From a virus (lineage: Duplodnaviria; Heunggongvirae; Uroviricota; Caudoviricetes): a DNA stretch of 15,433 bases. Below, piece by piece: positions 832 to 14,488 of this stretch. A model generated the notes under the pieces. That model made no database searches and was not told where the DNA came from. It saw only the letters and a list, made by a program, of their open reading frames with translations. Numbering within the stretch: the stretch's first letter is position 1; the number at the start of each line of letters is the position of its first letter. A program made the translations under genes and the position numbers. The DNA lies in the IMG/VR virus record IMGVR_UViG_3300014970_000025; one strand, written 5' to 3'.

Positions 832-1584
832 GTGGATGATATGGCAACTACATGTTCAGTTATATTGATTTTGGAGTCCTTTGATGTTTATTTCGGAAAA
901 GAGAGAGTGTTTCTGGATAGAGGTTTATCTGTACTTGTCGACTCTAGCTATAGAGATTTTTTCCTGACATATCCTGAAAGAGTGATAGTGGCGGATTTTG
1001 GCGCTGAGTTTATTAGTCGCTATTTGAAAGCTAATAACTTAAGGGATATTTCTGATTGTAGGGAATATCCATCTTATTTAAAAATAAACTTTGCTGACTT
1101 CAGTTTAATTAAAGGATTAATTAGTTGGGCTAATCACTGTGCTGAATATATAGAAATTTTTGATGAGTCTATTGCTTTTACATGTCTCTCTGCATTTTCT
1201 TCTGAAAAACAATTTGGAGTATTTCTGTTTGGATGTTTGAAAAGCACAGGGGCTAAAGTTAAAACGATTATTCATACGGATTTATCTGCACCATGGCATC
1301 TTAAGGATATATCATCAAGATTATATCTCAGCGAAAGTTTACTAAAGAGGAAATTGAAAGAAGAGGGGGTATCATTCAGTAAGATCATACTTGATGAGAG
1401 GATGCAAATGGCTGAATATTTACTCAGCACTCGTTGTTATCCTGTTAGTAAAGTAGCTAAGGTCTGTGGTTATGCCAGTGTCTCATACTTTACTTATGTA
1501 TTTAGACGTTATTTTGGTGTTTCTCCAAGTCAATACTCTCAGAGGAGTTCAGAAAGTAAAATTCTTACTCACCAGGGAATCTGA
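832..1584 (+). CDS. AraC-family transcriptional regulator, AppY/EnvY/AdiY-like (250 aa)
   Basis: Intact 250-aa ORF. C-terminal double HTH region (WHLKDISSRLYLSESLLKRKLKEEGVSFSKI...VAKVCGYASVSYFTYVFRRYFGVSPSQY) matches the AraC/XylS signature and resembles, from memory, E. coli AppY ([22 protein letters not shown]...QKCGYNSTSYF). Preceded by a very AT-rich upstream region (600-830), typical of horizontally acquired AraC regulators. Start may be 832 or 841. Confidence 0.85.
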   Translation: MDDMATTCSVILILESFDVYFGKERVFLDRGLSVLVDSSYRDFFLTYPERVIVADFGAEFISRYLKANNLRDISDCREYPSYLKINFADFSLIKGLISWANHCAEYIEIFDESIAFTCLSAFSSEKQFGVFLFGCLKSTGAKVKTIIHTDLSAPWHLKDISSRLYLSESLLKRKLKEEGVSFSKIILDERMQMAEYLLSTRCYPVSKVAKVCGYASVSYFTYVFRRYFGVSPSQYSQRSSESKILTHQGI

Positions 1585-1625
1585 TCATTGTTCTTGCCCC
1601 CTTATTTCCAGACAGGGGGTGTATC

Positions 1626-2062
1626 TTAAGTTAACGTTACCCGCTGACGTCGATATTCTCGCGGAGAGCGATAACCCAACGCACTGTGCGGATGGTTTTC
1701 ATTGTAATGTTCGATCGCCACTGCAAGATTATGCAATGCCGTTCTTACATTCGGTTTCGGCATGAACGCGATGTAGTCTTCCTTCATCGTTTTCACGAAC
1801 CTTTCTGCAATTCCATTACTCTGAGGACTGCTGATTGCCGTTGTGCAGGGCTCCAGATTCAACTCTCTGGCGAACTGCCGTGTTTCATGCGCTCTATACG
1901 CTGAACCGTTATCTGTCAGCCACTGGATGGACTGTTCCGGTACTTTATCGCCAAAGCGTTTTTCTATCGCTCCTAACATGACATCCTGCACTGTCGCTTT
2001 ATCGTAACCTCCCGTGCTTGCGGCCCAGTCTATGGCTTCACGATCGCAACAGTCCAGGGCGA
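1626..2062 (-). pseudogene. IS3-family (IS2-like) transposase OrfB, C-terminal fragment (rve/DDE integrase core remnant)
   Basis: Minus-strand translation ...[51 protein letters not shown]...[14 protein letters not shown] matches the C-terminal end of IS3-family OrfB and resembles IS2 InsD as recalled. The frame is open only to an in-frame stop near 2063; the N-terminal part and OrfA are absent; no inverted repeats identified. Confidence 0.8.
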
Positions 2063-2338
2063 TTCATCTGGGCCAATCCTTGCTCATAACAGGCATTCAC
2101 TTCAGTCATGGCAGAAAGGTATGCATGCTGGAGAAGTCGTGAAAGAAAAGAAGACTGCTGCGCCGTTTGTCGTCACGTTTATCTTCATTGGCTATGCAAG
2201 TCGTAATACAAGGTGGGACAAAACTGAGACACATAAGGCCTCGCAATGGCTTGCAAGGCTTTACATGTTTTGATGTGGTGGGACGTGTGAGCGCAGTGTT
2301 GATGGGGTAATGCTTTGAATTAGAAGCGGATTCTTATA

Positions 2339-2384
2339 ATTCGTAATGCGAAGGTCGTAGGTTCGACTCCTATTATCGGCACCA
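2339..2384 (+). repeat. thrW: 3' 46 nt of tRNA-Thr(CGU) gene (anticodon loop to CCA): attachment-site core / direct repeat; not a complete tRNA
   Basis: ATTCGTAATGCGAAGGTCGTAGGTTCGACTCCTATTATCGGCACCA matches, from memory, the 3' part of E. coli thrW (T-arm GGTTCGACTCC, acceptor 3' strand, CCA). The 5' half (GCCGATATAGCTCAGTTGG...) is not present upstream, so this is a partial copy, as left at junctions of tRNA-integrated elements. Confidence 0.75.
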
Positions 2385-2989
2385 TCAAGAAAATCAATAA
2401 CTTAGCTTAACTTCTCTAAGAAATTGTATCTTCTGTTATCACTTACAAACGCCTATACGTTGTTATGGGCTTTGGTAGTGTAACACGTATGGGCGAGTAG
2501 TTCCCAGGCTCAACCTCGTAACAAGTTCCTTTGAAGCTGGAAGACGTGCCACCGTCTCTAAACCTTCTACCAAAACTCTTAGCAAGATGTTCCACACCTG
2601 GCGCGGTGTCCAATGATGCTACACGTCGTGAGACGTTGCAGAGGATAAACAGGCTAAATGATGGGAAGAGTTTTAAGTGCAATAGTGGATTAAAGCCCAC
2701 CTCTTCAAAACCTAACTTGATCGGGAAAGAATCAAGCTCTAGCACGGTTTCGTCCACCGGAGTACAACGGGTGCCTGATAAGAGAAGAACTGCTAAGACT
2801 TCATAGCTTTTGTGAAAAAGCCCTTTTTAGTGGATACGCCTACGGCGCTTATTTTTTGGTATAACCATCAAAGGCGCTTTATGGCTCCTATTGTCTTGAA
2901 AATGTATCTTTACTTGTATTGTGTTTTATGCGTAGTCTCCCTGTGTAGTATGTAACTTGTTAATTTTCATATGAATACAGAGGCAAACG

Positions 2990-3148
2990 ATGAAAAACAT
3001 TGCAGCTATCAAACGTAATAACCGCAAGATTCACGCTCGTAAGTTCCTGTCTACGCCAGAAGGAAAAGCCTGGCTAGAGCGTAAACAGAGAGAGAACGAA
3101 GAAAGAAAACTCCTTAGTGAGTTGAAATGGCTTAGAGAGGATTTCTGA
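2990..3148 (+). CDS. small basic hypothetical protein (52 aa; MKNIAAIKRNNRKIHARKFLSTPEGKAWLERKQRENEERKLLSELKWLREDF)
   Basis: ATG at 2990 preceded by GAGG about 7 nt upstream; below the 60-aa cutoff of the ORF track. Lys/Arg-rich and helical in character. No recognised family. Confidence 0.4.
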   Translation: MKNIAAIKRNNRKIHARKFLSTPEGKAWLERKQRENEERKLLSELKWLREDF

Positions 3149-3309
3149 AAATCTCCAGAACGCAACAGGGCGCATTCTAACGCTGTTTTCATTGCTTGGT
3201 ATAGGGATTATAGGTGATGTGTGTTTAATGCGTCTGTGAGCTTTTTTTGTGCCTTATTTTGCATTTTCATAATGCAGGAGAGAACACGGAAAGCCTTAAA
3301 ATTAATTAT

Positions 3310-3480
3310 TGGGGTATTTAAGGCTATTTTTAGGTGATTTAAGGGTATTAAACTTGATTTAATTGGTTAAAATATAAACAGATAGTTGTGTATCTTATTG
3401 GTTTATAAGGTTATTTTTAAATAAAGGTAAATAAAAAATAAATACCCATAAATAGCTATAAATACATCTAAATACCTATA
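3310..3480. repeat. iteron-like repeat arrays in AT-rich DNA (candidate origin or regulator-binding array)
   Basis: Three ~20-21-bp spaced units (G/T)ATTTAAGG(G/C)TAT at ~3314, 3335, 3355, with a related unit at ~3401; then TAAATA at 3428, 3439, 3449 and 3459, 3469 with exact 10-bp phasing for the last four (ATAAATACCC / ATAAATAGCT / ATAAATACAT / CTAAATACCT). Confidence 0.55.
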
Positions 3481-3491
3481 TCCCCTCCCTT

Positions 3492-3875
3492 ATGGCTAGA
3501 TTGCGAGAGGTGCTTAACGCGATTTTCAGCGCCCCCCGATCTGGAAAATCCAGAATCCCCAAATATCAGCAAGGAATTTTCTTGCGTAATCAACATCGTT
3601 TTTACCTATTAAATCATTACACAGAAAGCCTTTCTGTAATGTCTCTCACTAAACTTTCACTAAACACGAGAATGATCGGTTTTATGTCGGATCAGATGCT
3701 AGAAACAGCACCACGTCTCACAAGGGCTGTAAGCGATGAAACCAGTGTTTATGCGGGTGCAGGTCAAAATATAGGCCAAAATCCATTTAACATAATAAAC
3801 GTAATATGCACTAAGGAACACATAGAACGCCTTGAGTTGATGTATCAGGGGAAAAGTGGTGGATTTTTTACGTAG
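3492..3875 (+). CDS. hypothetical protein (127 aa), doubtful
   Basis: ORF present in track but no Shine-Dalgarno (ATG preceded by CCCCTCCCTT), composition unremarkable, no recognisable domain. May be non-coding. Confidence 0.25.
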   Translation: MARLREVLNAIFSAPRSGKSRIPKYQQGIFLRNQHRFYLLNHYTESLSVMSLTKLSLNTRMIGFMSDQMLETAPRLTRAVSDETSVYAGAGQNIGQNPFNIINVICTKEHIERLELMYQGKSGGFFT

Positions 3876-3894
3876 GAGCACGAGAGGGCTTCTA

Positions 3895-3922
3895 TTGACT
3901 TTTGTATGCTATGAAATATAAT
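3895..3922 (+). promoter_or_regulatory. near-consensus sigma-70 promoter (TTGACT-N16-TATAAT)
   Basis: TTGACT at 3895-3900 and TATAAT at 3917-3922, 16-nt spacer; directs rightward transcription into an ORF-poor region. Confidence 0.5.
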
Positions 3923-4356
3923 AGAAGGTTTTTATTTTTATGTTGATAGTGATTGCACATTAAAGATTGAAAGCAAATTTAAACATAAATTTTCAACACG
4001 TGAAAGAAACTTGTTCGACAAATAATAGATTGATTTTTAATCAACAATTTCTGATAGTGCTCTGTAAGCCGCATTACACAAGGCTTTGCGAAAGTGATGT
4101 AAAAGTGAAGAAAGCTAACATTGCTCTTTTAAGCCACTTTTCATTGAATTTTTAGTATGGAATTACATAGGGATTAATCATCAATTACATTGAATTTAAG
4201 CCTGTTTTAGATAGCAAGAAACACTTTTACTGATTATAAGAAGATCATTGCACAGATGTTATGTGATGGATGTAACGGTAGGTCACTGTGAACTATCCCC
4301 TACAGAATTTTGTTACCTATTAGATCAACTATCAAACTACAATTAAATTATCTTTT

Positions 4357-4576
4357 ATAAATTCTTTTATCTTTAAAGAATAATTATAGGGATACCCGTT
4401 GGATGTAACGATGGGTTACATCGGCAGATGACCGGGGGGGTCGGTCACGATGACCGGGGGGGGTCGGTCACGATGACTGACAATAAGATTACTTTAATAA
4501 TACTAATAATAAAACTAACATCTATAATACTAATAAATTCTTTTATCTTTTAAGAATAATTATAGGGATACCCGTT
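4357..4576. repeat. 44-bp direct repeat pair (43/44 identical) flanking a hairpin and tandem G-tract palindromes
   Basis: DR1 4357-4400 and DR2 4533-4576: ATAAATTCTTTTATCTTT(A/T)AAGAATAATTATAGGGATACCCGTT. Between them: hairpin GATGTAAC-gatgg-GTTACATC (4402-4422); tandem units GATGACCGGGGGGGTCGGTCAC (4427-4448) and GATGACCGGGGGGGGTCGGTCAC (4449-4471), each containing the palindrome TGACCG-N7-CGGTCA; partial third unit 4472-4480. Confidence 0.8.
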
Positions 4577-4581
4577 AGGGG

Positions 4582-4655
4582 AGTCTAACGACTATCCCTT
4601 AATCTATTGGCATTCGCCAGAACCTTGCACAAGTTAGAGTGTTAGTCGTTAGACT
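4582..4655. repeat. 12-bp perfect inverted repeat AGTCTAACGACT / AGTCGTTAGACT separated by 50 bp
   Basis: Arms at 4582-4593 and 4644-4655. The core CTAACG recurs at 4823-4830 (TCTAACGA) and in a bulged hairpin GCGTTACCCC-ttt-GGGGatgcTAACGC at ~4889-4914. Confidence 0.7.
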
Positions 4656-5183
4656 GCTTGTCATAACACATAGTTTTTGTTTGTTGATGTTAGTTAGTAG
4701 ATCTATGTTCGCTAATGCCGCTCACAACGAATATGTAATCTACTATGTGCAAATAGCCTACGGCTTGCGTAAGGCTAAATAGTCTTGCGCTGTGCGCAGA
4801 ACGATAATTAACTAACTACCATCTAACGATCATCAATCATCTAAAATAAATTTCTTGTGCAATGTTCTTGCGAATGCAATTAGGGTAGCGTTACCCCTTT
4901 GGGGATGCTAACGCATAACTATAGATCAACCATCAAACAGACAAAAAAGAAAAATATGGTTTAAAGATGTTAGGTAGTAGATGAGTTTCTACCGCTTAAA
5001 TCAAGCCGTAGGCGAGCAAAACAACCTCTACATAAGGGAATGTATTGTTTTTATCAAAATCTCGTCAGAATGCGTTTTAGAGCGTTTTAGCGGATAATGA
5101 AGAATAGCACCACACAGGAGAGCACGAATTGATAAGAAAAAATGTAAGCGCATGAAAAAGATCAGGTTTTTTATGAAAAGGTA

Positions 5184-5212
5184 TTGACAAATGTTTCTTT
5201 ATATGTAATAAT
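5184..5212 (+). promoter_or_regulatory. sigma-70-like promoter (TTGACA-N17-AATAAT with upstream TG)
   Basis: TTGACA 5184-5189, TGT then AATAAT 5207-5212; sits ~120 bp upstream of the first gene of a + strand gene cluster. Confidence 0.5.
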
Positions 5213-5330: not shown

Positions 5331-5513
5331 ATGAAATGGTTTACATCGGAACGCGTCGTAGAGGCATTTAAAAAAGGTGAGCTAACACGACATCAAATAG
5401 TAATGAATCGTAATATGGCAAGGAGTCGAGGTTATCCAGAGCGTGAAAAATGCTTTGACGATGCACTAAAAATTATTGATGAACTGCGTAAGGCAGAGGC
5501 AGAGAAAGAATAA
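5331..5513 (+). CDS. small hypothetical protein (60 aa)
   Basis: Strong SD (AAGGAG, 6-nt spacing) before ATG 5331; product MKWFTSERVVEAFKKGELTRHQIVMNRNMARSRGY..., no family recognised. Confidence 0.55.
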   Translation: MKWFTSERVVEAFKKGELTRHQIVMNRNMARSRGYPEREKCFDDALKIIDELRKAEAEKE

Positions 5514-5534
5514 TAACAAGAGAAGGAGAAAACT

Positions 5535-5705
5535 ATGAGCGAAACTACAGAAAAGAAAAGACAACCACGCACTTGCTTTCATATTCCTGATGAAGTATTT
5601 CAGGTGTTATTTAAAGAAGCAAGAAGTAAACGTATCACTGTTACAGATTACATTCTTGATATGTTGAAAAGAGAGGCTGAAACACTCTCAAATAAAAGCA
5701 AGTGA
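5535..5705 (+). CDS. Arc-like ribbon-helix-helix (RHH) DNA-binding protein (56 aa)
   Basis: SD AGGAG before ATG 5535; below ORF-track cutoff. CFHIPDEVFQVLFKEARSKRITVTDYILDMLKRE aligns by eye with P22 Arc (FNLRWPREVLDLVRKVAEENGRSVNSEIYQRVMESF): beta-strand followed by two helices, RHH pattern. Confidence 0.65.
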   Translation: MSETTEKKRQPRTCFHIPDEVFQVLFKEARSKRITVTDYILDMLKREAETLSNKSK

Positions 5706-5759
5706 TTTTTATCACCATAGTAGCGCCGTAGAGCGTGATTACATACAGGAGATTTTTTA

Positions 5760-6386
5760 ATGATTAACCAACCAACTTTTACAAAACACTATGACACGTT
5801 CGATAACATCTCGAAGATTTACTCTGATAAATTGCCTCAAGGAAAAGATTTAGAGCTATTACACATTGTGCTTTATTTTCGATTTCTTAGTTATCAGGAG
5901 AACAATCTTAATTGTTACGAAAGTCACGAGACATTAGCTAAGATTTTTAAGGCTTCGGTATCAACGATTCAACGTAAGATTAAAGATCTTAAGGAGATGG
6001 GGTTATTAGATACATCCCCGCACTCTGATCCTAACATTACATCCCTTGTTTATACTGCTCTCCCTCTCACAGATGCACACATTACACCACCGGAAGACGT
6101 GAAATTCGCTGTAAACGTAGAACGGGCTGCACCTGAATATCAGGAAACATTAGAAGCGACACACTCTATTGAGCAGGAAACACAGGAATCAGCGTTCCCT
6201 GAGCGGCCCGAAATTTTTACTTGGCTTCTTTCCCTTGATAAGAAGAAACCACCACACGAAGAAACAGAAGATTTTGTAAAACGAGCATTAGATTCAAAGA
6301 ATATCTATCTTTGTGAAAATGATTTTGACTCTTTGATAATTGATCTCAAAAGTGAGAGCACAATATATGATTCACTACCCTTCTAA
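5760..6386 (+). CDS. winged-HTH DNA-binding protein, replication-initiator/organizer-like N-terminal domain (208 aa)
   Basis: SD AGGAG before ATG 5760. N-terminal LLHIVLYFRFLSYQENNLNCYESHETLAKIFKASVSTIQRKIKDLKEMGLLD follows the pattern of phage/plasmid Rep-type winged-helix domains; C-terminal half acidic and unassigned. Confidence 0.7.
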   Translation: MINQPTFTKHYDTFDNISKIYSDKLPQGKDLELLHIVLYFRFLSYQENNLNCYESHETLAKIFKASVSTIQRKIKDLKEMGLLDTSPHSDPNITSLVYTALPLTDAHITPPEDVKFAVNVERAAPEYQETLEATHSIEQETQESAFPERPEIFTWLLSLDKKKPPHEETEDFVKRALDSKNIYLCENDFDSLIIDLKSESTIYDSLPF

Positions 6387-6521
6387 GGAGAATAAATGAC
6401 TTATAACATCACAAACAATCAATAACAACAGATCGGGCAATACATATGGCAAATGCATTTATGGCGATATTCATCGTAACAATGGCATTCAGTTTTTATA
6501 ATCCACATAAAAAGAGGGAAA

Positions 6522-6905
6522 ATGGGAAGAAAGAAGAAGAACAACTTAAAACGTATTGAAAAAAACAGTAACTTCAATTCAACAAGACAACGTCCACCGA
6601 CACACACCAATAACGAAATTCCAGGGGAAGAGATAATATTTATTCTTGAAACAGAATCCCCTGAATTAAGCGATGAAGAATTAGAAATAATCCAGTCAAT
6701 GCCAGGCGTTTACTTTCGCCCAAGAACAAGAAAACAAACTATCATTTCTGATGGCACTCTGAAACGTTGGCAGCTTTTAGGGTTTAGCTCCTATCATCAT
6801 TTTTTGGGATTTAACGCTTTCAATAATTGTGTAGGTGGTGCATCGGAAGTCGATCTGATGGCTCATTTAGAAGATACATTAGCTTCTAACAAACGTTCTA
6901 ACTAA
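6522..6905 (+). CDS. hypothetical protein (127 aa), basic N-terminus and acidic middle
   Basis: SD GAGGG before ATG 6522; no family recognised. Confidence 0.5.
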   Translation: MGRKKKNNLKRIEKNSNFNSTRQRPPTHTNNEIPGEEIIFILETESPELSDEELEIIQSMPGVYFRPRTRKQTIISDGTLKRWQLLGFSSYHHFLGFNAFNNCVGGASEVDLMAHLEDTLASNKRSN

Positions 6906-6920
6906 TAAAATGATGGGCGT

Positions 6921-7166
6921 ATGTATAAGCGCCCAATGAAAATATTCAAAAAAGGAAAAATAATGATTGGCTATATTCAAGAAACACAATTATTTCAGAT
7001 GATCCTGTCTGATGCAAAAAACTATGCTGAGTTAATCCGACTGGCAAAAGAAACAGAAGACTACGAAGCATTAGAGCGTTATCGTGATGAAGTGCTGACG
7101 CTCAAGACACCTTTTAACATCGTATTGAATATGATTAATGATGCATTACAAGGAGAAGCCGCATAA
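6921..7166 (+). CDS. small hypothetical helical protein (81 aa; alternative start 6963 gives 67 aa)
   Basis: Internal ATG 6963 has the better SD (AAGGAAAAATAATG). Stop overlaps the next start (TAATG at 7164-7168), suggesting translational coupling. Confidence 0.45.
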   Translation: MYKRPMKIFKKGKIMIGYIQETQLFQMILSDAKNYAELIRLAKETEDYEALERYRDEVLTLKTPFNIVLNMINDALQGEAA

Positions 7167-7474
7167 TGGAAGAAGATATTAGCAATGCAATGGAACAACT
7201 TTTAGATCTGACTATCTCACTACAAACAAGAATAAATCAAGCCTATTCAGATTTATGTGATTACACGCTCTCTCAATGCGTTATTAGCTTAATGAAGGTG
7301 AATGTAAGCCTTGACGATTTTATCTCTCTGGTGAGCGATTTAGAGCTATCAGAGGACGATGCAAAACAGTGTAATCAAATCATCACAGACATCGCCACCA
7401 CGTTAAAGGTTGCAAGTGAAGAGATTCAGCAATTAGTAGATGATTTAGCAAAAAGTGCTATTTTCTCTAAATGA
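7166..7474 (+). CDS. acidic helical hypothetical protein (102 aa)
   Basis: Start overlaps the upstream stop; product rich in D/E/L/I; no family recognised. Confidence 0.55.
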   Translation: MEEDISNAMEQLLDLTISLQTRINQAYSDLCDYTLSQCVISLMKVNVSLDDFISLVSDLELSEDDAKQCNQIITDIATTLKVASEEIQQLVDDLAKSAIFSK

Positions 7475-7487
7475 TAATGAAAATTAT

Positions 7488-7516
7488 TTGCATTTATAAT
7501 GATTTTGTTATATAAT
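7488..7516 (+). promoter_or_regulatory. near-consensus sigma-70 promoter (TTGCAT-N17-TATAAT)
   Basis: TTGCAT 7488-7493, TATAAT 7511-7516, plus a second TATAAT at 7495-7500; followed by ~0.9 kb without any + strand ORF above ~25 codons. Confidence 0.5.
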
Positions 7517-8401
7517 AATTTTAGGGGTAGATAAAAAGATTTTAGTTGGTGTTAATCCTTCTACTGTCATAAATCCCTGCATATGGAAGGTGATAGCCTC
7601 AAAGGTTGAGTGGCATTAACCTCTAACAAATATTACCTTCCATCTCTCAAGAAGTTTTAGAATAATCATAACTCCCTCTTTGATTGTTGATTGTTTCTAC
7701 GTTGTGTTGATGAATGTTGTTAGGCATTGTGCTTAATTTTGATAAAAGCGGGTAGGTGTTATCTCCTTGCCCTTCCCGCTCTTATTTTTCATCTATGCTT
7801 ATCCTAAAGCTCCTTATTTTGTCCGAAAACATTAAAGAGCCTTACACTGATAGTTATATTTTATAACTATTTACTAACATCATTAAACTCTTATTTAATG
7901 ACGGAAGTTAGTAACAGAATAATCTATTAAGTTGTTGTCAAAAAACTATCATCTGCATAGCGTTAGCCGCAAGTAGAGAGAGTTTAGCTAAGAATGGTGC
8001 AATAAACTTTGGAAATATTGATAGCAAAACGGGTTTTATAGAATGCGGATCTATAAGCTTTGGTTGTAAAAACGATTTTCTGAAACGGTAGATTACTGTT
8101 GGTGTAGTTAATCCTATTAAAATTTGATCTGTGAGTAGATTAGAATTGGAATAGTGATTCCTTAAAGCCTTACTTTGTTGCATCCACAGCAAAAACAGGC
8201 AGCGGTTTAGCCCCCGCATCGAATAGCAGGATCGTAGATTCCAAAGGGTTGGCCCCTCCTAAGAGCCAATTTCTCCTGCGGTCCTGTTATTCACCCTTAA
8301 CATATCTCTAAGCGTATTTATAAAAGTATTCTTAGAGATAACGTTAAACCTCCTCAAAGTTGACTTATCACAATATGTATTTTGCCCGATACAAAATAAA
8401 T

Positions 8402-8452
8402 AAGCCCCTTGCTATTGTTGATTGAACCTCTTATAGCCTGGGGCTTTTTATT
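8402..8452 (+). terminator. stem-loop followed by T-run (possible intrinsic terminator or RNA 3' structure)
   Basis: AAGCCCC (8402-8408) pairs with GGGGCTT (8440-8446), followed by TTTTATT; loop is long (31 nt) so classification is tentative. Confidence 0.3.
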
Positions 8453-8480
8453 ACTCGGAACATAACGGAATCGTTATTTT

Positions 8481-8690
8481 ATGAAACAAGAAATTATCCT
8501 GAAATATGGCAATGAAAAGTTAACACTAACTGAGGATGTGTTGAATGCTACAGCCTACGCGCTTGGCATCACTCCTACAGAATTAAAGAAACAGTGTGAA
8601 CGTCTTTATAAGGCTGACAGCAATAAACCATCTCACCAAGATTTGATTAATGCTAAAGCTCAACAAATCAAACAATCTAAGGAAAAATAA
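8481..8690 (+). CDS. small hypothetical protein (69 aa), possible HTH-like segment
   Basis: Stop overlaps the start of the next gene (TAATG at 8688-8692). Segment ATAYALGITPTELKKQ is HTH-like. No family assigned. Confidence 0.5.
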   Translation: MKQEIILKYGNEKLTLTEDVLNATAYALGITPTELKKQCERLYKADSNKPSHQDLINAKAQQIKQSKEK

Positions 8691-9064
8691 TGGCTATTTT
8701 AAAATTAAGCGATGTTTTCCCACATCGTAAAAGCATCACTGACGTAGTGAGCTATGCAACCGACCCTTACGCGGCTGTAGAAAGCAAAAAATTTGCAGCA
8801 CTTGCACAAGATGTAACGTGCGGCGACCTCATTGATTCATCCGGCGCTAAATATGTTAGCGGCGCTGATGTTCTTGTCGTTGTGTCTGACTTCGTAACTG
8901 CTGATTCAAATAAAACAGTTAACGTGCTTCGTGCTAATGCCGGACTCGTTTGCATCAAAGCTGATGCCCTGAATGCCGAAGGCGCTGTAAAAGAAGCTGC
9001 TATTGCAGCTCTCGCTGCTAAAGGCTTCCAGCTTGAAGGCTTCCACTCTGTTTTCACATCTTAA
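8690..9064 (+). CDS. putative head decoration protein (lambda gpD/SHP-like position and size, 124 aa)
   Basis: SD AAGGA; lies immediately upstream of an E-like major capsid gene, as D does in lambdoid head modules; size typical; Ala/Val/Gly-rich. Assignment rests mainly on synteny and composition. Confidence 0.45.
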   Translation: MAILKLSDVFPHRKSITDVVSYATDPYAAVESKKFAALAQDVTCGDLIDSSGAKYVSGADVLVVVSDFVTADSNKTVNVLRANAGLVCIKADALNAEGAVKEAAIAALAAKGFQLEGFHSVFTS

Positions 9065-9080
9065 GAAGGAATAAATAATA

Positions 9081-10109
9081 ATGATTATCGGAAATGAAGT
9101 GGTTGATCTTGCTCCACTGTTTGAATTAAACGATACCCGTAACTATCTGCTGTCTACTCTGGATTTTACTGATCCTGTGCCTGTAGAAAGTCACAAAGTG
9201 GCTGTTTCCCAGCTTATCGAGAGCAATGAATCTCTGTTCAACCATCCTACAAGCCGTTTTAGCTCTGAGCATAACGTTACTAAACGTGAAAACGCGGAAG
9301 AGTGGCTGATTGAAATTCCTTATTTCCTGCGTGAAGACCTGATCACACCGCAGGACGTGCAAGGCAAACGAAAAGCCGGAAGCTCTATTGAAGAAACACT
9401 GCCGGATCTGTATGCGGAATATATCGCTAAACACAATGTTGCATTCCAGCGCACTAAAGAAAGCATCCTCGCGGCTTCTCTGTTCTCTGGCAAGACGCAT
9501 ACCCCGAAAACTGACGATGTTCTGATCGACTACAGCACTCTGTTCGGTGTGTCTCCAATGACTGCAACCGTTGACGCATCCAGCACCAACACAATGACTG
9601 TGTTCAAACAGTTTGACCAGATGCATACGGATATGATTGCTAAAGCACAAAGCCAGGCTGCAACCATTGAGCGTGTTGTTGTGTTCTGTAAGCCTGCGGC
9701 ATTCAACGCTATTCGTTACAGCGTTGGCATGGTTAATGCGTTCCAATATGCAAGCCCTGTAGACGATGCAAACGTGGTGTTTAATGTGCGCTCTCTGCTG
9801 CCTGGTGTAACTACTTTCACCATTCCAGGAACTAACATTGATCTGATCAAAGTGACTGATCCGCTGCTGCTGGCACATATGACCGCAGACGCTGTAGCTG
9901 TTCCTAAATTCGCTAAAGGTGCAGGTGTTTACCAATCTATTTATGGCGCTCCTTCCAGTTCCTTCGATCTGCTGTCTCAAGGCGCTAAAGAGTATTACAG
10001 CTATGCTTTCGAATCGAATCGCGGCGACGCAGTGCACGTAGTGACCGAGAATAGCTCGCTTGTGGTTAACCACGGTGTTGGCTTCTCTGTGCAGATCACA
10101 GTAGCGTAA
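9081..10109 (+). CDS. phage major capsid protein, lambda gpE-like family (342 aa)
   Basis: SD AAGGAA; length nearly identical to lambda gpE (341 aa); C-terminus ...VVNHGVGFSVQITVA resembles gpE ...DPDEFVSVQLA and internal ERVVVFCKPAAFNAIRYS resembles gpE NIIVFDPKGWALFRSF (by recall). Confidence 0.8.
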   Translation: MIIGNEVVDLAPLFELNDTRNYLLSTLDFTDPVPVESHKVAVSQLIESNESLFNHPTSRFSSEHNVTKRENAEEWLIEIPYFLREDLITPQDVQGKRKAGSSIEETLPDLYAEYIAKHNVAFQRTKESILAASLFSGKTHTPKTDDVLIDYSTLFGVSPMTATVDASSTNTMTVFKQFDQMHTDMIAKAQSQAATIERVVVFCKPAAFNAIRYSVGMVNAFQYASPVDDANVVFNVRSLLPGVTTFTIPGTNIDLIKVTDPLLLAHMTADAVAVPKFAKGAGVYQSIYGAPSSSFDLLSQGAKEYYSYAFESNRGDAVHVVTENSSLVVNHGVGFSVQITVA

Positions 10110-10273
10110 AAAGTGTTAAAGACGTTCCCCTACGTCTGGAAATAATCGGGGGGCAATAAGGGTAAGGAGATTAACTAACCTGTAGGCGCAAATACAGTAA
10201 CGAATCTCTTTGCCCTTTTTGTTTTTCTACTGTCTACAAATCCAAATAAAAATATATATGTGAGAGAAAACCA

Positions 10274-10471
10274 ATGAACACAGAAAATTCACAGGCATTA
10301 ATTCTTAAATCTGTAAAAGAACTGGCAGCTATTAGCGATGACTCAATAATCAATGTCAGTGCCTTATGCAGAATGCTTTCAATTGATGCAAATAATGTGC
10401 GGCAGCGTGTGTTTCAGACCGGGTGCAGCACTTTCGAAGCAATCCAATATTATTGTTCTAAAAAACAATAA
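10274..10471 (+). CDS. small hypothetical protein (65 aa)
   Basis: Weak SD; segment VSALCRMLSIDANNVRQR is HTH-like; uncertain. Confidence 0.35.
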   Translation: MNTENSQALILKSVKELAAISDDSIINVSALCRMLSIDANNVRQRVFQTGCSTFEAIQYYCSKKQ

Positions 10472-10505
10472 CAAACAACAATCATAATACAGGGAAACAA
10501 TCAGT

Positions 10506-12347
10506 ATGTTAGAACTAAACGTGGCACGCCTCTCGAACGTTGTCACCTTCGAAGTTAACCGACCATCATTAGAGAAAGCAAAAGCAGAAGTAGAAAAACT
10601 TCGTAAACAAATGGCGGCGGTGAAAGATATAGAATTGCGTGTTAAGACACATAAACAATCAACCGCTAAAGCAAAAAAAGACGTAGACGATATTGCTAAA
10701 AAGCAAGCACAGGCAGATAAAGCCAATGCTAAAGCACAATTAGCCGCTCAACGTGTAGTTGCAAGAGAACAAAAAGCCCTGGCAGCACGGAAAGAGAAGG
10801 CTGAATTAAAGCTTTTAGACGTTGGAGCAAGCATTAGCGCATTGCACCGTCTTTCTGTAGCGGAACAATATAAAGCTATTGCACAGGCTAGAGAAATTGC
10901 CCTCCAATATGAAAGAGGCGCTATTAGTCTGGCACGTATGAATAGCCAAATGAAACGCCTACAACAGCAACAACGTAAGATTAATGGCAATCGTAACGCT
11001 CACGCTAAAGCCTATGCACCTGTTAAGGGTAGCGGGAGTATTGGCGGCGGTGCTGCGGCTGTTATGCTGGGTGGCTTAGGCGCTGGCGCTGCATATATGG
11101 CTATGAGCAAAGCTTCTGAATTTGTTACTAACAGCTTTGCGAATGCTGAAACGCTGGGAGAATTGTATAGCCGTGCGAAGCTGGGCGGTGTAGACGTTAA
11201 CCAGATGAACAATATTGAGCAATGGGCGTATAAAAACGGCGTTGATTCAATGATGGGGGATCAAGGTAAACGTAAGTATCTCGATCAGATGAAAGATGTG
11301 CGTGAGCGTGCAACCAAAAGCTATGATGAGGCTGAATATGTAGTCGATAAAAAAACAGGCAAAGGTGAATGGAAGGGCGGCGATAGCGGCATCAACGTTC
11401 TCATGAACGAAGGATTCTTAACTAAGAAAGATTTGAAAGACTTTGCTGATAATCCTGCTGGCCTGGTTAGTAAAGCAGTTCAGGGAATGGTAGCTAAAGG
11501 CTATTCAGATGCACAAATCGGTAGTCGTCTTGAAGACTTGGGCGATGATTTGATGCTCACCTCTAAATACTGGACACGCTCCGCTAAAGAAGTGGAACAA
11601 TCAGCACGAGAACAACGAGAATCAGGGCGCTGGGTAACACAGGCACAACAGGAAAGCGTTATTAAATTCCGTGAACTGAATAATGCACTTAGTGGGCTTT
11701 CTGACTCACAAGGGATCGCCTTTGTTGATGGCTTTATGAAATCTCTTGATCCGAAAGTGATTGAAGAGTTTAAAAAGAGCATGGTTGCAATGCTGCCAAT
11801 GTTTACCAAATTAGGCGAGGCTATCGGCGGATTGGTTAACGCTGTAATGAAAGCAATCAACTGGCTGATGAAAAACGACGAGAAGACGGCAGCTATTCAG
11901 AAGAATTTAGGTGATGCACCGCCACTATCTAACGAAGGAATGAAGCAGAATCTTTCTAATCTCACTCCTGATCAATATAAAGGCGCTGGCACCGGAACAA
12001 CTAAGCCAGATAACAGCAATTCCCTGGTTAACACTATTAAAAGCTGGTTTATGCCAGAAGAAACGGTAGGTGGGGCGCAGGCTGTAAATCAATACAGTCT
12101 CGAAGGACAAAACATTGCAAATCTGAAACAGAGTGCAGCACAACAAGCTTTCAAGGCTCCTTCTTACACCTTTGCACCTGTTATTAACTTCAATCCAGAA
12201 TTACAAGTAAATGCAGAAGTGCCGCTAACTATCGAATCAGACACCGGACGATTGAGCGAATTTATCGACTTCAAATCAAAGGCATCCTCCGCTGAGTTTA
12301 GCAAGCTATTAACGCTGGGTGTTATGTCAGGCGGGTCAACCTATTAA
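10506..12347 (+). CDS. tape-measure-like protein: long Lys/Ala/Gln coiled-coil N-terminus, Gly-rich hydrophobic segment, large C-terminal region (613 aa)
   Basis: Residues ~20-170 are heptad-like charged helix (EKAKAEVEKLRKQ...KAQLAAQRVVAREQKALAARKEKAELK), followed by GSGSIGGGAAAVMLGGLGAGAAYMAMS (membrane-like). This architecture is typical of phage tail tape-measure or ejection proteins. No enzymatic motif seen. Confidence 0.5.
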   Translation: MLELNVARLSNVVTFEVNRPSLEKAKAEVEKLRKQMAAVKDIELRVKTHKQSTAKAKKDVDDIAKKQAQADKANAKAQLAAQRVVAREQKALAARKEKAELKLLDVGASISALHRLSVAEQYKAIAQAREIALQYERGAISLARMNSQMKRLQQQQRKINGNRNAHAKAYAPVKGSGSIGGGAAAVMLGGLGAGAAYMAMSKASEFVTNSFANAETLGELYSRAKLGGVDVNQMNNIEQWAYKNGVDSMMGDQGKRKYLDQMKDVRERATKSYDEAEYVVDKKTGKGEWKGGDSGINVLMNEGFLTKKDLKDFADNPAGLVSKAVQGMVAKGYSDAQIGSRLEDLGDDLMLTSKYWTRSAKEVEQSAREQRESGRWVTQAQQESVIKFRELNNALSGLSDSQGIAFVDGFMKSLDPKVIEEFKKSMVAMLPMFTKLGEAIGGLVNAVMKAINWLMKNDEKTAAIQKNLGDAPPLSNEGMKQNLSNLTPDQYKGAGTGTTKPDNSNSLVNTIKSWFMPEETVGGAQAVNQYSLEGQNIANLKQSAAQQAFKAPSYTFAPVINFNPELQVNAEVPLTIESDTGRLSEFIDFKSKASSAEFSKLLTLGVMSGGSTY

Positions 12348-12357
12348 TCATCACTGT

Positions 12358-12373
12358 GGGGCTGTTTAGCCCC
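12358..12373 (+). terminator. GC-rich hairpin GGGGCT-gttt-AGCCCC with weak U-tract
   Basis: Perfect 6-bp stem, 4-nt loop, 10 nt after the stop of the 613-aa gene; followed by CTTAAAT rather than a strong T-run. Confidence 0.35.
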
Positions 12374-12394
12374 CTTAAATAAGGATTACAAATT

Positions 12395-13072
12395 ATGGCA
12401 ATGGGTCCGTTAACCATTGGTCGCCCGACTGAGGCGAAAATCAACAGCACAAGCAACGATAGCAACGGTAGAACAACCAAAGGGGGTAACGGCTTTGCGA
12501 TCATTGCCTCTAACCTCGGCAGTGGTGCAAATGCTGCTTACAATGACTACCAGGCATTATCATTTGATAGCGTGGAATCGACGAAAGTTAGCAGAAATGC
12601 GGACGTTACAAGCTATGCCGTCGAATCAGGATCAGAAGTTAGTGATCATGTTCAAATACGGAATAACAAGTTCACATTACAAGGGCGTATCTCTGAAACC
12701 GTATTGAAGCTCAATCCCGATATGATTAAGAATGCGGGAATTAACGGCAATAGACGTATGCTTATGCTTGAATACCTAAATCAGTTGATGGACAGTCGCC
12801 AACCTTTCCTACTTGTCACTGAGTTAAAAAATTATGACAACGTTGTGTTAGTTGGCATGTCTTACGAAGAAGAAGCAAGCGAAAGTATATTGTTTACTCT
12901 TGATTTTGAGCAAATTCGTCTTGTCTCTAAGGCCACCACTAATGCTATTGCTGTAAAAACAGCACCAAATAAATCTGTAGGGGGACAGGTTAAAATGCAG
13001 GTAAATACAACAGAACAGAAAAATCAAAAAAGCCCAGGGCAAGACGTTGTAACACCAGTATTTAAACAATAG
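12395..13072 (+). CDS. hypothetical protein (225 aa), Ser/Thr/Asn-rich N-terminus; possible virion-associated protein
   Basis: SD AAGGA 9 nt upstream; follows the tape-measure-like gene; no family recognised. Confidence 0.6.
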   Translation: MAMGPLTIGRPTEAKINSTSNDSNGRTTKGGNGFAIIASNLGSGANAAYNDYQALSFDSVESTKVSRNADVTSYAVESGSEVSDHVQIRNNKFTLQGRISETVLKLNPDMIKNAGINGNRRMLMLEYLNQLMDSRQPFLLVTELKNYDNVVLVGMSYEEEASESILFTLDFEQIRLVSKATTNAIAVKTAPNKSVGGQVKMQVNTTEQKNQKSPGQDVVTPVFKQ

Positions 13073-13153: not shown

Positions 13154-14488
13154 CTATGGCGTTGTTTTACGCCTTAAATTTGATTTTTTATTGATTGATA
13201 AGCCTTTCTCTATTTCAGGGTAGCGTAAAAGCTCAATATATTTTTTAAGCTCTACTGGAGAAGCTGCATTTTTGCTATATGTGCGGAATGTTTCTGTATT
13301 GCCGCGTGTATGGCCCAGGAGAAGGGCGATCCTGTCTTCTGGAATTTGATTTCGATCAAGAAGCTGTGCTACTCCGTGTCTCAGAGAATGAAACACTTTC
13401 CTTTCTGTTCCCTTTTCCCCTAAAGCCTTTCGTTTAGCTCTTGTAAATCGTTGTGTATGCCACGTAGAGCGTTTACCGTCAGCACGTTCTGTAATGCTGG
13501 CGTGATAGAACAAAAAGCCATTGTGAGGCTTTTCACGCAGCGACAACACCAACGGAGTGATAAGGCTATGTACAGGCACAACACGTGCCGCTGCTTTCGT
13601 CTTTCCCTGTGTGATTTCAAAACACAGCACACCTTCGATCTCTTTCACATCGTCTATTGTGAGACTTGCTATCTCATTGATCCGCATACCTGTATATAAA
13701 CCGATAAGACACAAAGCCGTCATTTCTTTGTTTTCTGCTGAATTACCGGAAAATACTTGCAACACCTGCAATAGCTCTTTGTTAGAAAATGCCTCGTAGC
13801 TCTCTCTACTTTGTGCCACATCAAGCCTATGCCCTCGCCAGGGGGAGAGCGCCCTTTCTGGCGCATCGTGGTAACGTGATGAAGCTAACTCCCATAGCTG
13901 GGCCATTGGGCTGATATAATTTGCAATTGATTGTTGTGAAAGAGTTTTTTGCATGTGTTCAATCCAGCCTGTAACAGTGGTGCGGCTTACGTCTTGCAAT
14001 GCAATATCAGGCTTTTTACGGTAGGAGAGAAACATCTCTACCGCTTTTCTTGCCTTAGCTAAAGTGGCTGGCTTCTTCTTCGTGCTGTTAATTGTCAGGT
14101 AGATTTCAAGAATTTTAAGCAATGACGGACACGAAGACGCTGTATCTTGCATTCTGGTAGCTGTTTTGGCGTATTTAGCCTTACTGCGTAACAGTTCCAG
14201 CGTGTTTTCTATTGTGCTGTTTACAGGGGCAACACTCTCCCGTAAGCAATGGTATTCATCTGCAATCTGATCACGCTTTCTACGTGCAACACGAAGATTA
14301 CTTGTGTGCAGACTTCTGACAAACGTCCTTTTTCCTTCAAAAAAGGGCTGCATATACACAGGCAGCGTGATCCTTAAATAGTAGTTACCGTAAGAATCAC
14401 AGATTAAGTATTGGTTAGGCTTGTATCTCATAAAATCTCCGGCTAAAGTGTCGGAGCGTTTGTAATGTGAAAATTGATTGTGACGCAT
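13154..14488 (-). CDS. tyrosine site-specific recombinase (phage/P4-type integrase, 444 aa; alternative start at 14431)
   Basis: Catalytic-domain motifs TGMRINE (Arg), HSLRHGVAQ (His-x-x-Arg), LLGHTRGNTETFRTYSK (His, Tyr nucleophile); N-terminal YLRITLP...FFEGKRTFVRSL typical of tRNA-site integrases; lies adjacent to a tRNA-Thr-derived repeat. Confidence 0.9.
   Translation of the reverse strand: MRHNQFSHYKRSDTLAGDFMRYKPNQYLICDSYGNYYLRITLPVYMQPFFEGKRTFVRSLHTSNLRVARRKRDQIADEYHCLRESVAPVNSTIENTLELLRSKAKYAKTATRMQDTASSCPSLLKILEIYLTINSTKKKPATLAKARKAVEMFLSYRKKPDIALQDVSRTTVTGWIEHMQKTLSQQSIANYISPMAQLWELASSRYHDAPERALSPWRGHRLDVAQSRESYEAFSNKELLQVLQVFSGNSAENKEMTALCLIGLYTGMRINEIASLTIDDVKEIEGVLCFEITQGKTKAAARVVPVHSLITPLVLSLREKPHNGFLFYHASITERADGKRSTWHTQRFTRAKRKALGEKGTERKVFHSLRHGVAQLLDRNQIPEDRIALLLGHTRGNTETFRTYSKNAASPVELKKYIELLRYPEIEKGLSINKKSNLRRKTTP

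What the first reader, a model, noticed from the sequence alone, without database searches (positions are those of the whole stretch)
6522..7474. Three small genes of unknown function, two translationally coupled
Three small ORFs (127, 81 and 102 aa) with no recognisable domains sit between the regulatory module and the ncRNA-like interval. The last two overlap by TAATG at 7164-7168. The acidic helical 102-aa protein could be a scaffold-like or anti-host protein. Small coupled genes in satellites are often helper-interference factors.
Basis: inference. Interest (0 to 1): 0.35.

Follow-up and report, generated by a model that had tools for sequence, protein, structure and literature searches.

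The report
Small orphan genes of phage satellite
The three small ORFs are real, selected genes at the end of the early operon of an apparently undescribed E. coli phage-satellite-like island; their function is unknown, but one carries a short motif also found in the large lytic phages that the island probably parasitises.

Summary
ORF2 most likely starts at 6963 (67 aa, not 81). A fourth 37-aa ORF (6446-6559) overlaps the ORF1 start.

All three genes show purifying selection (dN/dS about 0.1-0.5) and have good ribosome-binding sites. They keep their order in 23 related loci.

They lie in an integrase-bearing island at tRNA-Thr (thrW). Its capsid, tape-measure-like and Dit-like genes resemble those of Stephanstirmvirinae myophages (Phapecoctavirus, phi92), not lambdoid phages.

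Pfam, NCBIfam, PADLOC, PDB and Foldseek give no significant match.
- ORF1 has a basic, probably disordered N-terminus. Its C-terminal 30-40 aa motif is homologous (hhalign 96-97%) to about 80-aa proteins encoded next to nrdA in Stephanstirmvirinae and Vequintavirinae phages (phrog_5488).
- ORF3 is an acidic (pI 4.05) helical hairpin with a variable loop.
- ORF2 is an acidic, exchangeable cassette that is missing in distant lineages.

The conserved core is mini-ORF, ORF1 and an ORF3-like protein. It always sits just upstream of a conserved sigma-70 promoter, a structured leader RNA with a terminator, and the capsid operon.

Best guess, at low confidence: small helper-directed adaptor or late-switch proteins. 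Scaffold and toxin-antitoxin readings are unlikely. Function needs experiments.

The parts
5184..5212 (+). Sigma-70-like promoter (TTGACA, 17 nt, TG-AATAAT; 11 of 12 matches). Probable start of the early operon that runs through 5331-7474.
   Evidence: The scan found no + strand terminator-like site between here and 7474, which is only weak evidence because the scan is strict.
6446..6559 (+). Unlisted 37-aa mini-ORF (MANAFMAIFIVTMAFSFYNPHKKRENGKKEEEQLKTY). It has a hydrophobic N-terminal helix and a basic tail, and overlaps the ORF1 start out of frame.
   Evidence: ORFs of the same architecture (31-46 aa) lie at the same place in lineages A, B and C, in Escherichia sp. E1V33 and in Klebsiella. 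Gene finders called it in L004, L027 and L028.
6522..6905 (+). ORF1, 127 aa. Basic, probably disordered N-terminus (first 32 aa: 9 K/R, 2 D/E). Conserved core PGEE-IFILE-SPxL-EELxIIQSM-GVYFxPRxRK. C-terminal motif WQxLGFxSxxHFxGFxxFN.
   Evidence: dN/dS 0.09-0.18. The family has 35 clusters across Enterobacterales. AlphaFold2 pLDDT 57, below 50 for residues 1-42. The C-terminal motif is homologous to phage proteins and phrog_5488.
6914..6935 (.). Short inverted repeat (TGGGCG...CGCCCA) in the ORF1-ORF2 spacer. It is optional.
   Evidence: Read. Loci L009 and L011 have only a 17-nt spacer without it.
6963..7166 (+). ORF2, most likely 67 aa (alternative start 6921 gives 81 aa). Acidic (pI 4.3), predicted helical from its sequence pattern. 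An exchangeable cassette.
   Evidence: PGAP start. dN/dS 0.08-0.29. Types A and B are homologous (hhalign 93%, E 2.5e-7). Its type is shuffled relative to ORF1 and ORF3, and it is absent in lineages C, D and Klebsiella. No phage homologue.
7166..7474 (+). ORF3, 102 aa. Acidic (pI 4.05, net charge -13). Two-helix hairpin (helices 2-57 and 63-100). The loop at residues 58-62 is the site of ELS/SE insertions and deletions.
   Evidence: AlphaFold2 pLDDT 76.5. Charge. Loop indels. Types A and B are homologous (hhalign 85%, E 6e-6). Weak colinear match to the positional analogue in lineages C and D (E 0.0016). No PDB, BFVD or phage match.
7488..7516 (+). Conserved sigma-70 promoter (TTGCAT, 17 nt, TATAAT) starting 14 nt after the ORF3 stop codon. 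This is context: it marks the downstream boundary of the gene set.
   Evidence: An equivalent promoter follows the ORF3-like gene in lineage C.
7523..7789 (+). Structured leader or non-coding RNA ending in an intrinsic terminator (stem 7747-7752 with 7775-7780, then a T-run to 7789). There is no terminator between ORF3 and this point, so it is also the first terminator for read-through from the ORF1-3 operon.
   Evidence: Fold z-scores -3.6 (window) and -5.65 (type B). A long helix shows compensatory changes between types A and B. No Rfam match.

Best explanation
Shown. The three ORFs, plus a fourth overlapping 37-aa ORF, are genuine protein-coding genes. They form the distal end of the early operon of an integrative, satellite-like island at tRNA-Thr (thrW). 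The island's few structural genes derive from Stephanstirmvirinae-type virulent myophages. The conserved core is mini-ORF, ORF1 and an ORF3-like acidic helical protein. ORF2 is an exchangeable accessory cassette.

Inferred. These are non-enzymatic, non-structural binding proteins that act during helper-phage infection.
- ORF1 would be a two-part adaptor. Its C-terminal 30-40 aa motif is shared with an ~80-aa protein of helper-type phages. It would engage the same partner as that phage protein, as a mimic or competitor. Its basic, disordered N-terminus and satellite-specific core would supply the satellite's own function.
- ORF3 would be an acidic helical hairpin, co-translated with ORF2. It would act as a protein-binding partner or modulator, with its fast-evolving loop as the specificity surface.

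The most likely output is the takeover step that couples helper infection to expression and use of the satellite's structural operon. That operon lies behind the promoter, structured leader and terminator immediately downstream. Which partner is bound, and whether the effect is on transcription read-through or directly on helper proteins, is not resolved.
For: - Coding and selection.
- Synteny in 23 loci across five lineages (Escherichia, Buttiauxella, Enterobacter, Klebsiella).
- Translational coupling is kept in different forms: TAATG in the window; ATGA in L004, L012 and L015; ORF1/ORF3-like overlap in lineages C and D.
- The ORF1 family profile matches FBKp34 gp235 (hhalign 96.7%, E 4.7e-10) and an AV124 protein (95.8%, E 6.6e-9). 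9 of 26 family members hit phrog_5488.
- Helper type is inferred from the Dit-like protein (54% identity), the tape-measure-like protein (31%), the capsid protein (24-26%) and a shared 50-bp 5'UTR.
- ORF1, ORF3 and the downstream RNA are always of matching type (15 A, 3 B, 5 C loci), while ORF2, which lies between them, is swapped.
- The promoter, leader and terminator architecture directly downstream is conserved in all lineages.
- ORF3 is a helical hairpin whose variable, indel-prone loop has relaxed dN/dS.
Against: - There is no functional evidence at all.
- The phage protein carrying the shared motif is itself uncharacterised. Its position next to nrdA may point to nucleotide metabolism rather than takeover.
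- The window ORF1 on its own matches the phage proteins only weakly (BLASTP E 7e-4 in a tiny database; no PHROGs hit).
- Matching of ORF1, ORF3 and RNA types can be explained by plain linkage. The ORF2 swaps may amount to only two events.
- Natural variants lack ORF1 (L013, L014) or carry a frameshifted ORF1 (L012). ORF1 and ORF2 are therefore dispensable for chromosomal maintenance, or else those copies are decaying.
- The ORF1 model is of low confidence.
- Homology of ORF3 to its positional analogues is marginal (E 0.0016 and 0.05).
Confidence: 0.4

Rival explanations
1. Late-switch regulators. ORF1 would bind the nascent leader RNA through its basic N-terminal tail, or bind the promoter region. 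With ORF3 as a partner or anti-factor, it would let RNA polymerase read through the leader terminator(s) into the capsid operon. This is analogous in layout to lambda, where Q and the N protein act on terminated leaders.
For: - The genes are the last ones before a conserved sigma-70 promoter, a structured ~270-nt RNA and an intrinsic terminator.
- The capsid operon starts about 28 nt after a second hairpin and has no room for its own promoter.
- ORF1, ORF3 and RNA types always match.
- The ORF1 N-terminus is basic and predicted disordered.
Against: - There is no sequence or structural similarity to N, Q or other antiterminators.
- ORF1 is neutral overall, unlike N proteins.
- No nut- or qut-like element was identified.
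- Type matching may be linkage.
- A helper-encoded factor could equally drive late expression.
Confidence: 0.25
2. Lysis-timing or abortive module. The 37-aa membrane peptide, together with ORF1-3, would alter the timing of cell lysis or kill the infected cell, as the membrane protein LidI does in the Vibrio PLE satellite. A related reading is that ORF2/ORF3 form a type II toxin-antitoxin pair.
For: - A conserved small hydrophobic, basic-tailed ORF overlaps the ORF1 start in five lineages.
- ORF2 and ORF3 are two small coupled genes.
Against: - No PADLOC, Pfam or NCBIfam hit to a toxin-antitoxin or defence family.
- ORF3 is an acidic all-helical hairpin with a single Arg and no His, so it has no HEPN-type motif.
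- ORF2 is absent in three lineages that keep the ORF3-like gene, so the two are not an obligate pair.
- The mini-ORF is missing in L018.
Confidence: 0.1
3. ORF3, with or without ORF2, is a capsid scaffold or size-determination factor for the satellite's own capsid protein.
For: - ORF3 has an acidic, elongated helical hairpin shape.
- The island has its own capsid protein but no recognisable scaffold or protease.
Against: - ORF3 is encoded in the early operon, separated from the capsid operon by a promoter, about 1 kb of leader and a terminator.
- The 124-aa gene at 8690-9064 holds the usual position just upstream of the capsid gene.
- Islands with a capsid protein only 19% identical (L008) carry an ORF3 93% identical to the window's. 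ORF3 therefore does not track capsid type.
Confidence: 0.07
4. ORF2 and ORF3 are acidic DNA-mimic or anti-defence proteins (Ocr- or ArdA-like in principle). They would protect the incoming or replicating element.
For: - Low pI (4.05-4.3) and net charge of -13 and -6.
- Small size and helical character.
- A fast-evolving region in ORF3.
Against: - No hit to any anti-restriction or anti-defence family.
- Charge density is well below that of classical mimics. This comparison rests on general knowledge and was not computed here.
- No Foldseek match.
Confidence: 0.06

Closest known systems
Small early or accessory proteins of characterised phage satellites (SaPI Ppi, PtiA/B/M and CpmA/B; P4 delta, Psu and Sid; Vibrio PLE CapR, LidI and TcaP)
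   Same: They are small, satellite-specific ORFs in an operon next to the morphogenesis genes of an integrase-bearing island that lacks a full virion gene set. They evolve fast, and one (ORF1) carries a segment derived from helper-type phages.
   Different: There is no sequence or fold similarity to any of them. The island's presumed helpers are about 140-150-kb virulent Stephanstirmvirinae or Vequintavirinae myophages, and the island carries capsid, tape-measure-like and Dit-like genes. No helper dependence has been shown.
phrog_5488, the ~76-83-aa proteins encoded upstream of nrdA in Stephanstirmvirinae and Vequintavirinae phages (FBKp34 gp235; AV124 WPK37594)
   Same: They share the 30-40 aa motif W/K-x-x-(L/R)GF-x-(S/D)-x-x-H(Y/F)-x-G(W/F)-x-x-FN, with hhalign probability 96-97%.
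   Different: ORF1 has about 75 additional N-terminal residues (a basic tail plus the conserved SPxL...GVYFKPRxRK core) that the phage proteins lack. The phage proteins are uncharacterised and sit in a nucleotide-metabolism cluster.
Lambda-type late control, in which the Q gene lies directly upstream of the PR' promoter, a short terminated RNA and the late genes
   Same: The layout matches: small gene(s), then a strong sigma-70 promoter, then a terminated leader RNA, then the structural operon.
   Different: There is no homology to the Q or N proteins. ORF3 is acidic and lacks DNA-binding features. The leader is much longer and structured. This is a resemblance of layout only.

Membership tests
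Phage satellite (whole element) | Integrative element with its own integrase at a tRNA site | tested here: met
   Integrase at 13154-14488 on the - strand (Phage_integrase, E 1.5e-17). In complete genomes the island lies between tRNA-Thr (thrW) and paoD.
Phage satellite (whole element) | Incomplete virion gene set: some helper-related structural genes, but no terminase, portal or full tail | tested here: met
   Only the capsid protein (Phage_cap_E), the Dit_like protein and a tape-measure-like protein were recognised. No terminase or portal family was hit by any ORF scanned. Not every ORF was scanned.
Phage satellite (whole element) | Induction, packaging and transfer depend on a helper phage | not testable with these tools
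   This needs infection experiments.
phrog_5488-type motif (ORF1 C-terminus) | Significant profile match to family members | tested here: met
   The ORF1 family profile A4 matches the phage proteins at E 4.7e-10 and 6.6e-9. 9 of 26 family members hit phrog_5488. The window protein alone gives no PHROGs hit, so membership rests on the profile.
Type II toxin-antitoxin pair (ORF2/ORF3) | Match to a known toxin or antitoxin family | tested here: not met
   No Pfam, NCBIfam or PADLOC hit.
Type II toxin-antitoxin pair (ORF2/ORF3) | The two genes co-occur as an obligate pair | tested here: not met
   The ORF3-like gene is present without ORF2 in lineages C, D and Klebsiella. ORF2 alleles are exchanged independently of ORF3.
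Lambda N / Q antiterminators | Sequence or fold membership in the N or Q families | tested here: not met
   No Pfam, PHROGs, NCBIfam, PDB or Foldseek match.
Lambda N / Q antiterminators | A cognate nut (RNA) or qut (DNA) site at a terminated leader downstream | tested here: inconclusive
   A promoter, a structured leader and a terminator are present and conserved. No specific binding element could be defined.
Capsid scaffold protein | Encoded in the morphogenesis operon next to, and co-varying with, the capsid protein | tested here: not met
   ORF3 is in the early operon. It is nearly unchanged (93% identical) in islands whose capsid protein is only 19% identical.
DNA-mimic anti-restriction proteins (Ocr/ArdA) | Family match or a mimic fold | tested here: not met
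   No Pfam or PHROGs hit and no Foldseek match. The proteins are acidic, but that is not specific.

The most novel reading that the evidence does not exclude
ORF1 and ORF3, together with the overlapping mini-ORF, would form a new kind of late-switch module. It would be specific to an undescribed family of Enterobacterales satellites that parasitise virulent rV5- or phi92-like myophages. In this reading, a helper-derived peptide motif in ORF1 senses or captures a helper or host factor. The protein pair then acts on the type-matched structured leader RNA to release transcription of a satellite operon that encodes its own capsid, tape-measure and Dit proteins.
Probability: 0.15. Interest if true: 0.7.

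Novelty: new variant of a known kind. Interest (0 to 1): 0.42.

Why it matters
Related islands occur in roughly 13% of complete E. coli genomes, and also in Klebsiella, Enterobacter and Buttiauxella. I found no description of them in six full-text paper searches.

If these islands are satellites of Stephanstirmvirinae or Vequintavirinae phages, they matter for phage therapy, because those phages are common therapy candidates. The conserved mini-ORF, ORF1 and ORF3 core would then be the best entry point for learning how a chromosomal element senses and exploits a large virulent coliphage. That would be an E. coli counterpart of the Vibrio PLE-ICP1 system.

For genome annotation, the database names 'transporter' and 'ABC transporter ATPase' attached to ORF3 and ORF2 have no support.

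Tried and rejected
Searches that gave nothing significant for the three window proteins:
- Pfam, PHROGs, NCBIfam and PADLOC scans.
- PDB sequence searches, single and by profile.
- tblastn against 50,697 phage records for ORF1, ORF2, ORF3 and two ORF3-like analogues.
- Foldseek of the ORF3 model against PDB and BFVD, and of the low-confidence ORF1 model against PDB.

Other searches that led nowhere:
- Word-indexed protein searches found only Escherichia relatives.
- The search for related loci with the ORF1 alignments failed because no stretch was conserved enough.
- P0210 found nothing in viral contigs.
- RNAalifold on my first RNA alignment gave an unconvincing consensus, because the type-B sequences were cut short and misaligned.
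- The T4-type late promoter motif TATAAATA is not enriched in the window.
- The O157 Sakai thrW region carries different elements, Sp1 and Sp2.
- Six literature searches found no description of this island family.

Ideas rejected:
- The 81-aa start for ORF2.
- The minus-strand ORFs 6419-6610 and 6946-7071, which lie inside genes under selection on the + strand.
- A toxin-antitoxin pair.
- A scaffold role for ORF3.
- A lambdoid helper.
Full report
OBSERVATION. The window has + strand ORFs at 6522-6905 (127 aa), 6921-7166 (81 aa) and 7166-7474 (102 aa). The sequence TAATG at 7164-7168 makes the ORF2 stop codon and the ORF3 start codon share one base. ORF length alone is weak evidence in 35% G+C DNA, so I ran a control. 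None of 5000 Markov sequences of the same length and composition gave three ORFs of at least 60 aa, or 90% coverage. The observed coverage is 98%. P(longest ORF >= 127 aa) was 0.0004.

The stronger evidence is evolutionary. I collected related loci from complete E. coli genomes, assemblies, IMG/VR and GTDB genomes. Nei-Gojobori dN/dS is:
- ORF1: 0.09-0.18 at dS 0.6-1.4.
- ORF2: 0.08-0.29.
- ORF3: 0.13-0.30 among type-B alleles, and 0.4-0.9 among closely related type-A alleles, where substitutions are few.
Each gene has a Shine-Dalgarno sequence. All three are therefore real genes.

Three corrections apply:
1. ORF2 most likely starts at 6963 (67 aa). PGAP annotates it so in every complete genome examined. 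Divergent alleles begin at the equivalent Met-Ile without any upstream extension.
2. A 37-aa ORF (6446-6559), with a hydrophobic helix and a basic tail, overlaps the ORF1 start. An ORF of the same architecture but different sequence occupies the same place in five lineages. Gene finders called it in three loci.
3. The window lacks an 89-aa gene found upstream of ORF1 in other copies, because of a clean 240-bp deletion.

CONTEXT. The region 5200-8500 matches 710 of 5426 complete E. coli genomes. The best match is 94% identical. The 6390-7560 interval itself matches 291 genomes. In complete genomes the island lies between tRNA-Thr (thrW) and paoD.

Gene order in the window is:
- a sigma-70 promoter at 5184-5212;
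- two small genes (60 aa and 56 aa);
- a 208-aa HTH_36 protein resembling replication initiators;
- the mini-ORF, ORF1, ORF2 and ORF3;
- about 1 kb of non-coding DNA;
- 69-aa and 124-aa genes;
- a capsid protein (Phage_cap_E);
- a 65-aa gene;
- a 613-aa protein;
- a Dit_like protein;
- an integrase on the opposite strand.

The structural genes point to a particular phage group:
- The Dit-like protein is 54% identical to Phapecoctavirus proteins.
- The 613-aa protein is 31% identical, over 62% of its length, to proteins annotated as tape measures in related phages.
- The capsid protein's best phage hits, at 24-26%, are phi92/Phapecoctavirus-type and Pseudomonas myophage capsid proteins.
- The 50 bp upstream of the HTH gene are 88% identical to the 5'UTR of a related HTH gene in Phapecoctavirus Mt1B1_P17.
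No terminase or portal was recognised. The element therefore looks like a phage satellite whose helper is a large virulent Stephanstirmvirinae-type myophage, not a lambdoid phage. Six full-text literature searches found no description of it.

THE PROTEINS. None of the three window proteins hits Pfam, PHROGs, NCBIfam or PADLOC, the PDB by sequence, or phage genomes by tblastn. Word-indexed searches of 5.8 billion proteins found only Escherichia relatives. The NCBI names 'transporter' (ORF3) and 'ABC transporter ATPase' (ORF2) have no support.

ORF1. An exhaustive HMMER profile search found 35 clusters of 95-135-aa proteins. They come from Escherichia, Klebsiella and Winslowiella, and from metagenomes. 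All share the same plan: a basic N-terminus, a core 'SPxL..EE..I...GVYFKPRxRK', and a C-terminal 'WQxLGF.S..HY.GW..FN'. Nine of 26 members hit phrog_5488 through that C-terminal motif. A distant member finds small proteins in about 140-160-kb myophages of Klebsiella, Salmonella, Cronobacter, Raoultella, Enterobacter and E. coli. The family profile matches FBKp34 gp235 (Stephanstirmvirinae) at 96.7% probability, E 4.7e-10. It matches an AV124 protein (Vequintavirinae) at 95.8%, E 6.6e-9. In both phages the gene sits between a thymidylate synthase gene and nrdA. The phage protein is uncharacterised. AlphaFold2 gives a poor model for ORF1 (pLDDT 57). Residues 1-42 score below 50, and the C-terminal helices score 70-80. 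Foldseek and a PDB profile search found nothing.

ORF3. AlphaFold2 predicts two long helices (2-57 and 63-100) forming a hairpin, with pLDDT 76.5. The protein has pI 4.05 and net charge -13. The loop at residues 58-62 is where alleles differ by ELS or SE insertions and deletions, and the neighbouring residues vary most. Foldseek found no match in PDB or BFVD.

ORF2. It is 67 aa, pI 4.3, with no match anywhere.

ALLELES AND SYNTENY. Each gene has deeply divergent alleles of equal length. Types A and B are homologous by profile comparison: ORF2 at 93% (E 2.5e-7) and ORF3 at 85% (E 6e-6). More distant lineages have no ORF2. These are lineage C (Buttiauxella, an Enterobacter and IMG/VR contigs), lineage D (Escherichia sp. 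E1V33) and Klebsiella. In C and D, the stop codon of ORF1 overlaps the start of a 109-113-aa acidic helical protein. That protein aligns colinearly but weakly with ORF3 (E 0.0016). In Klebsiella a 149-aa acidic protein holds the same place, and homology there is not shown.

Across the 23 loci that have both ORF1 and ORF3, the types of ORF1, ORF3 and the downstream RNA always match (15 A, 3 B, 5 C). ORF2, which lies between ORF1 and ORF3, is exchanged independently. This could reflect co-adaptation. It could equally reflect linkage, with perhaps only two swap events.

Deletion variants exist:
- ORF1 is reduced to a remnant in L013.
- ORF1 is frameshifted in L012.
- The regulator gene is fused to the end of ORF2 in L014.

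WHAT LIES DOWNSTREAM. Fourteen nucleotides after the ORF3 stop codon there is a sigma-70 promoter (TTGCAT, 17 nt, TATAAT; 7488-7516). It is conserved in all lineages. It heads a ~270-nt RNA that folds better than shuffled controls, with z -3.6 in the window and -5.65 in type B. That RNA ends in an intrinsic terminator at 7747-7789. A long helix shows compensatory differences between types: ATGGAAGGT/ACCTTCCAT in type A against GAAAGCGGGG/CCTCGCTTTC in type B. Rfam has no match. The capsid operon begins at 8481, only about 28 nt after another hairpin, so it seems to have no promoter of its own. Expression of the structural genes therefore probably needs read-through of this leader.

INTERPRETATION. 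Four things are shown:
- The genes are real.
- They form an operon with translational coupling.
- They are satellite-specific.
- A conserved core (mini-ORF, ORF1 and an ORF3-like protein) sits in a fixed position before the leader of the structural operon.

It is also shown, by profile comparison only, that the ORF1 C-terminal motif is shared with helper-type phages.

From this I infer that they are small binding proteins used during helper infection. ORF1 would be an adaptor or mimic that uses the helper-type motif. ORF3, with ORF2 where present, would be an acidic helical partner whose variable loop carries specificity. The output would be the takeover step leading to use of the structural operon. 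I give this confidence 0.4.

The more specific idea, that ORF1 and ORF3 directly relieve termination in the leader, rests on layout and type matching only (0.25). Less likely readings are:
- a lysis-timing or toxin module built around the membrane peptide (0.1);
- a scaffold (0.07). ORF3 is in the wrong operon, and it stays 93% identical in an island whose capsid protein is only 19% identical;
- a DNA mimic (0.06).
A toxin-antitoxin pair fails both tests applied.

VERDICT. The genes themselves are orphan accessory genes, which are common in mobile elements. They gain interest from the helper-derived motif, the conserved core, and their place in an apparently undescribed and widespread satellite-like family.

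Noticed in passing
window 7488-7789: A conserved sigma-70 promoter (TTGCAT, 17 nt, TATAAT) lies right after ORF3. It drives a ~270-nt structured RNA that ends in an intrinsic terminator. Fold z-scores are -3.6 and -5.65, a helix shows compensatory changes between island types, and Rfam has no match.
   Followed up: partly
window 7790-8480: The rest of the ~1-kb non-coding leader has conserved blocks (for example TGCATCCACA and TCCTAAGAGC) and a second hairpin with a T-run at about 8433-8455. The capsid operon starts at 8481 with no room for its own promoter, so read-through or antitermination is probably needed. The minus-strand ORF 7938-8219 looks spurious.
   Followed up: partly
window 6446-6559: An unannotated 37-aa ORF with a hydrophobic helix and a basic tail overlaps the ORF1 start. 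ORFs of the same design occur at the same place in five lineages, including Klebsiella. It may be a small membrane protein or a coupling leader peptide.
   Followed up: partly
window 6398-6427: A clean 240-bp deletion, between short repeats, removes an 89-aa gene present in other copies (for example L001 9183-9452). It leaves a 9-codon remnant. Strains c1-17 and 3R share the same deletion.
   Followed up: yes
window 5718-5767: This 50-bp stretch, a 5'UTR with its ribosome-binding site and start codon, is 88% identical to Phapecoctavirus Mt1B1_P17 (20681-20729). In both it lies upstream of an HTH gene, and the two proteins are 29% identical. It suggests exchange of a regulatory or translation signal between island and helper-type phage.
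   Followed up: partly
window 8481-13072: The late operon encodes a capsid protein (Phage_cap_E), a 613-aa protein related to Phapecoctavirus tape measures (31% identity) and a Dit-like protein (54% identity). No terminase, portal, tube or sheath was recognised. A satellite carrying tape-measure-like and Dit-like genes might remodel the tail as well as the head.
   Followed up: partly
L008 11671-12702, compared with window 9081-10109: Islands that are otherwise about 90-98% identical carry a capsid protein only 19% identical in the same position. The capsid module has been swapped as a unit.
   Followed up: no
window 4250-4700: A repeat-rich non-coding stretch upstream of the early promoter. 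It has a 44-nt direct repeat (4357 and 4533), two tandem copies of the 21-nt unit GGGGGGGTCGGTCACGATGAC (4434-4477), and inverted repeats at 4582-4655 and 4604-4883. It could be an origin or a regulatory region.
   Followed up: no
window 1-4200: The left part is not part of the island core. It holds an AraC/YdeO-like regulator (832-1584) and an IS3-family transposase fragment on the minus strand (1626-1991). This looks like cargo or insertion debris between thrW and the island.
   Followed up: no
L027 9100-9170 and 9860-9945 (Klebsiella island): A ~30-nt motif (CTTTAATACAATTTTAATTGTCACTT) and CACTTGAAATA repeats occur both just after the ORF3-like gene and just before the capsid operon. They may be paired regulatory sites flanking the leader.
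   Followed up: no
L012 3792-4954; L013; L014: Natural variants exist: an IS3 insertion in the leader RNA right after ORF3 together with a frameshifted ORF1 (L012), ORF1 deleted to a remnant (L013), and an HTH regulator fused to the ORF2 C-terminus (L014). Some copies are decaying.
   Followed up: partly
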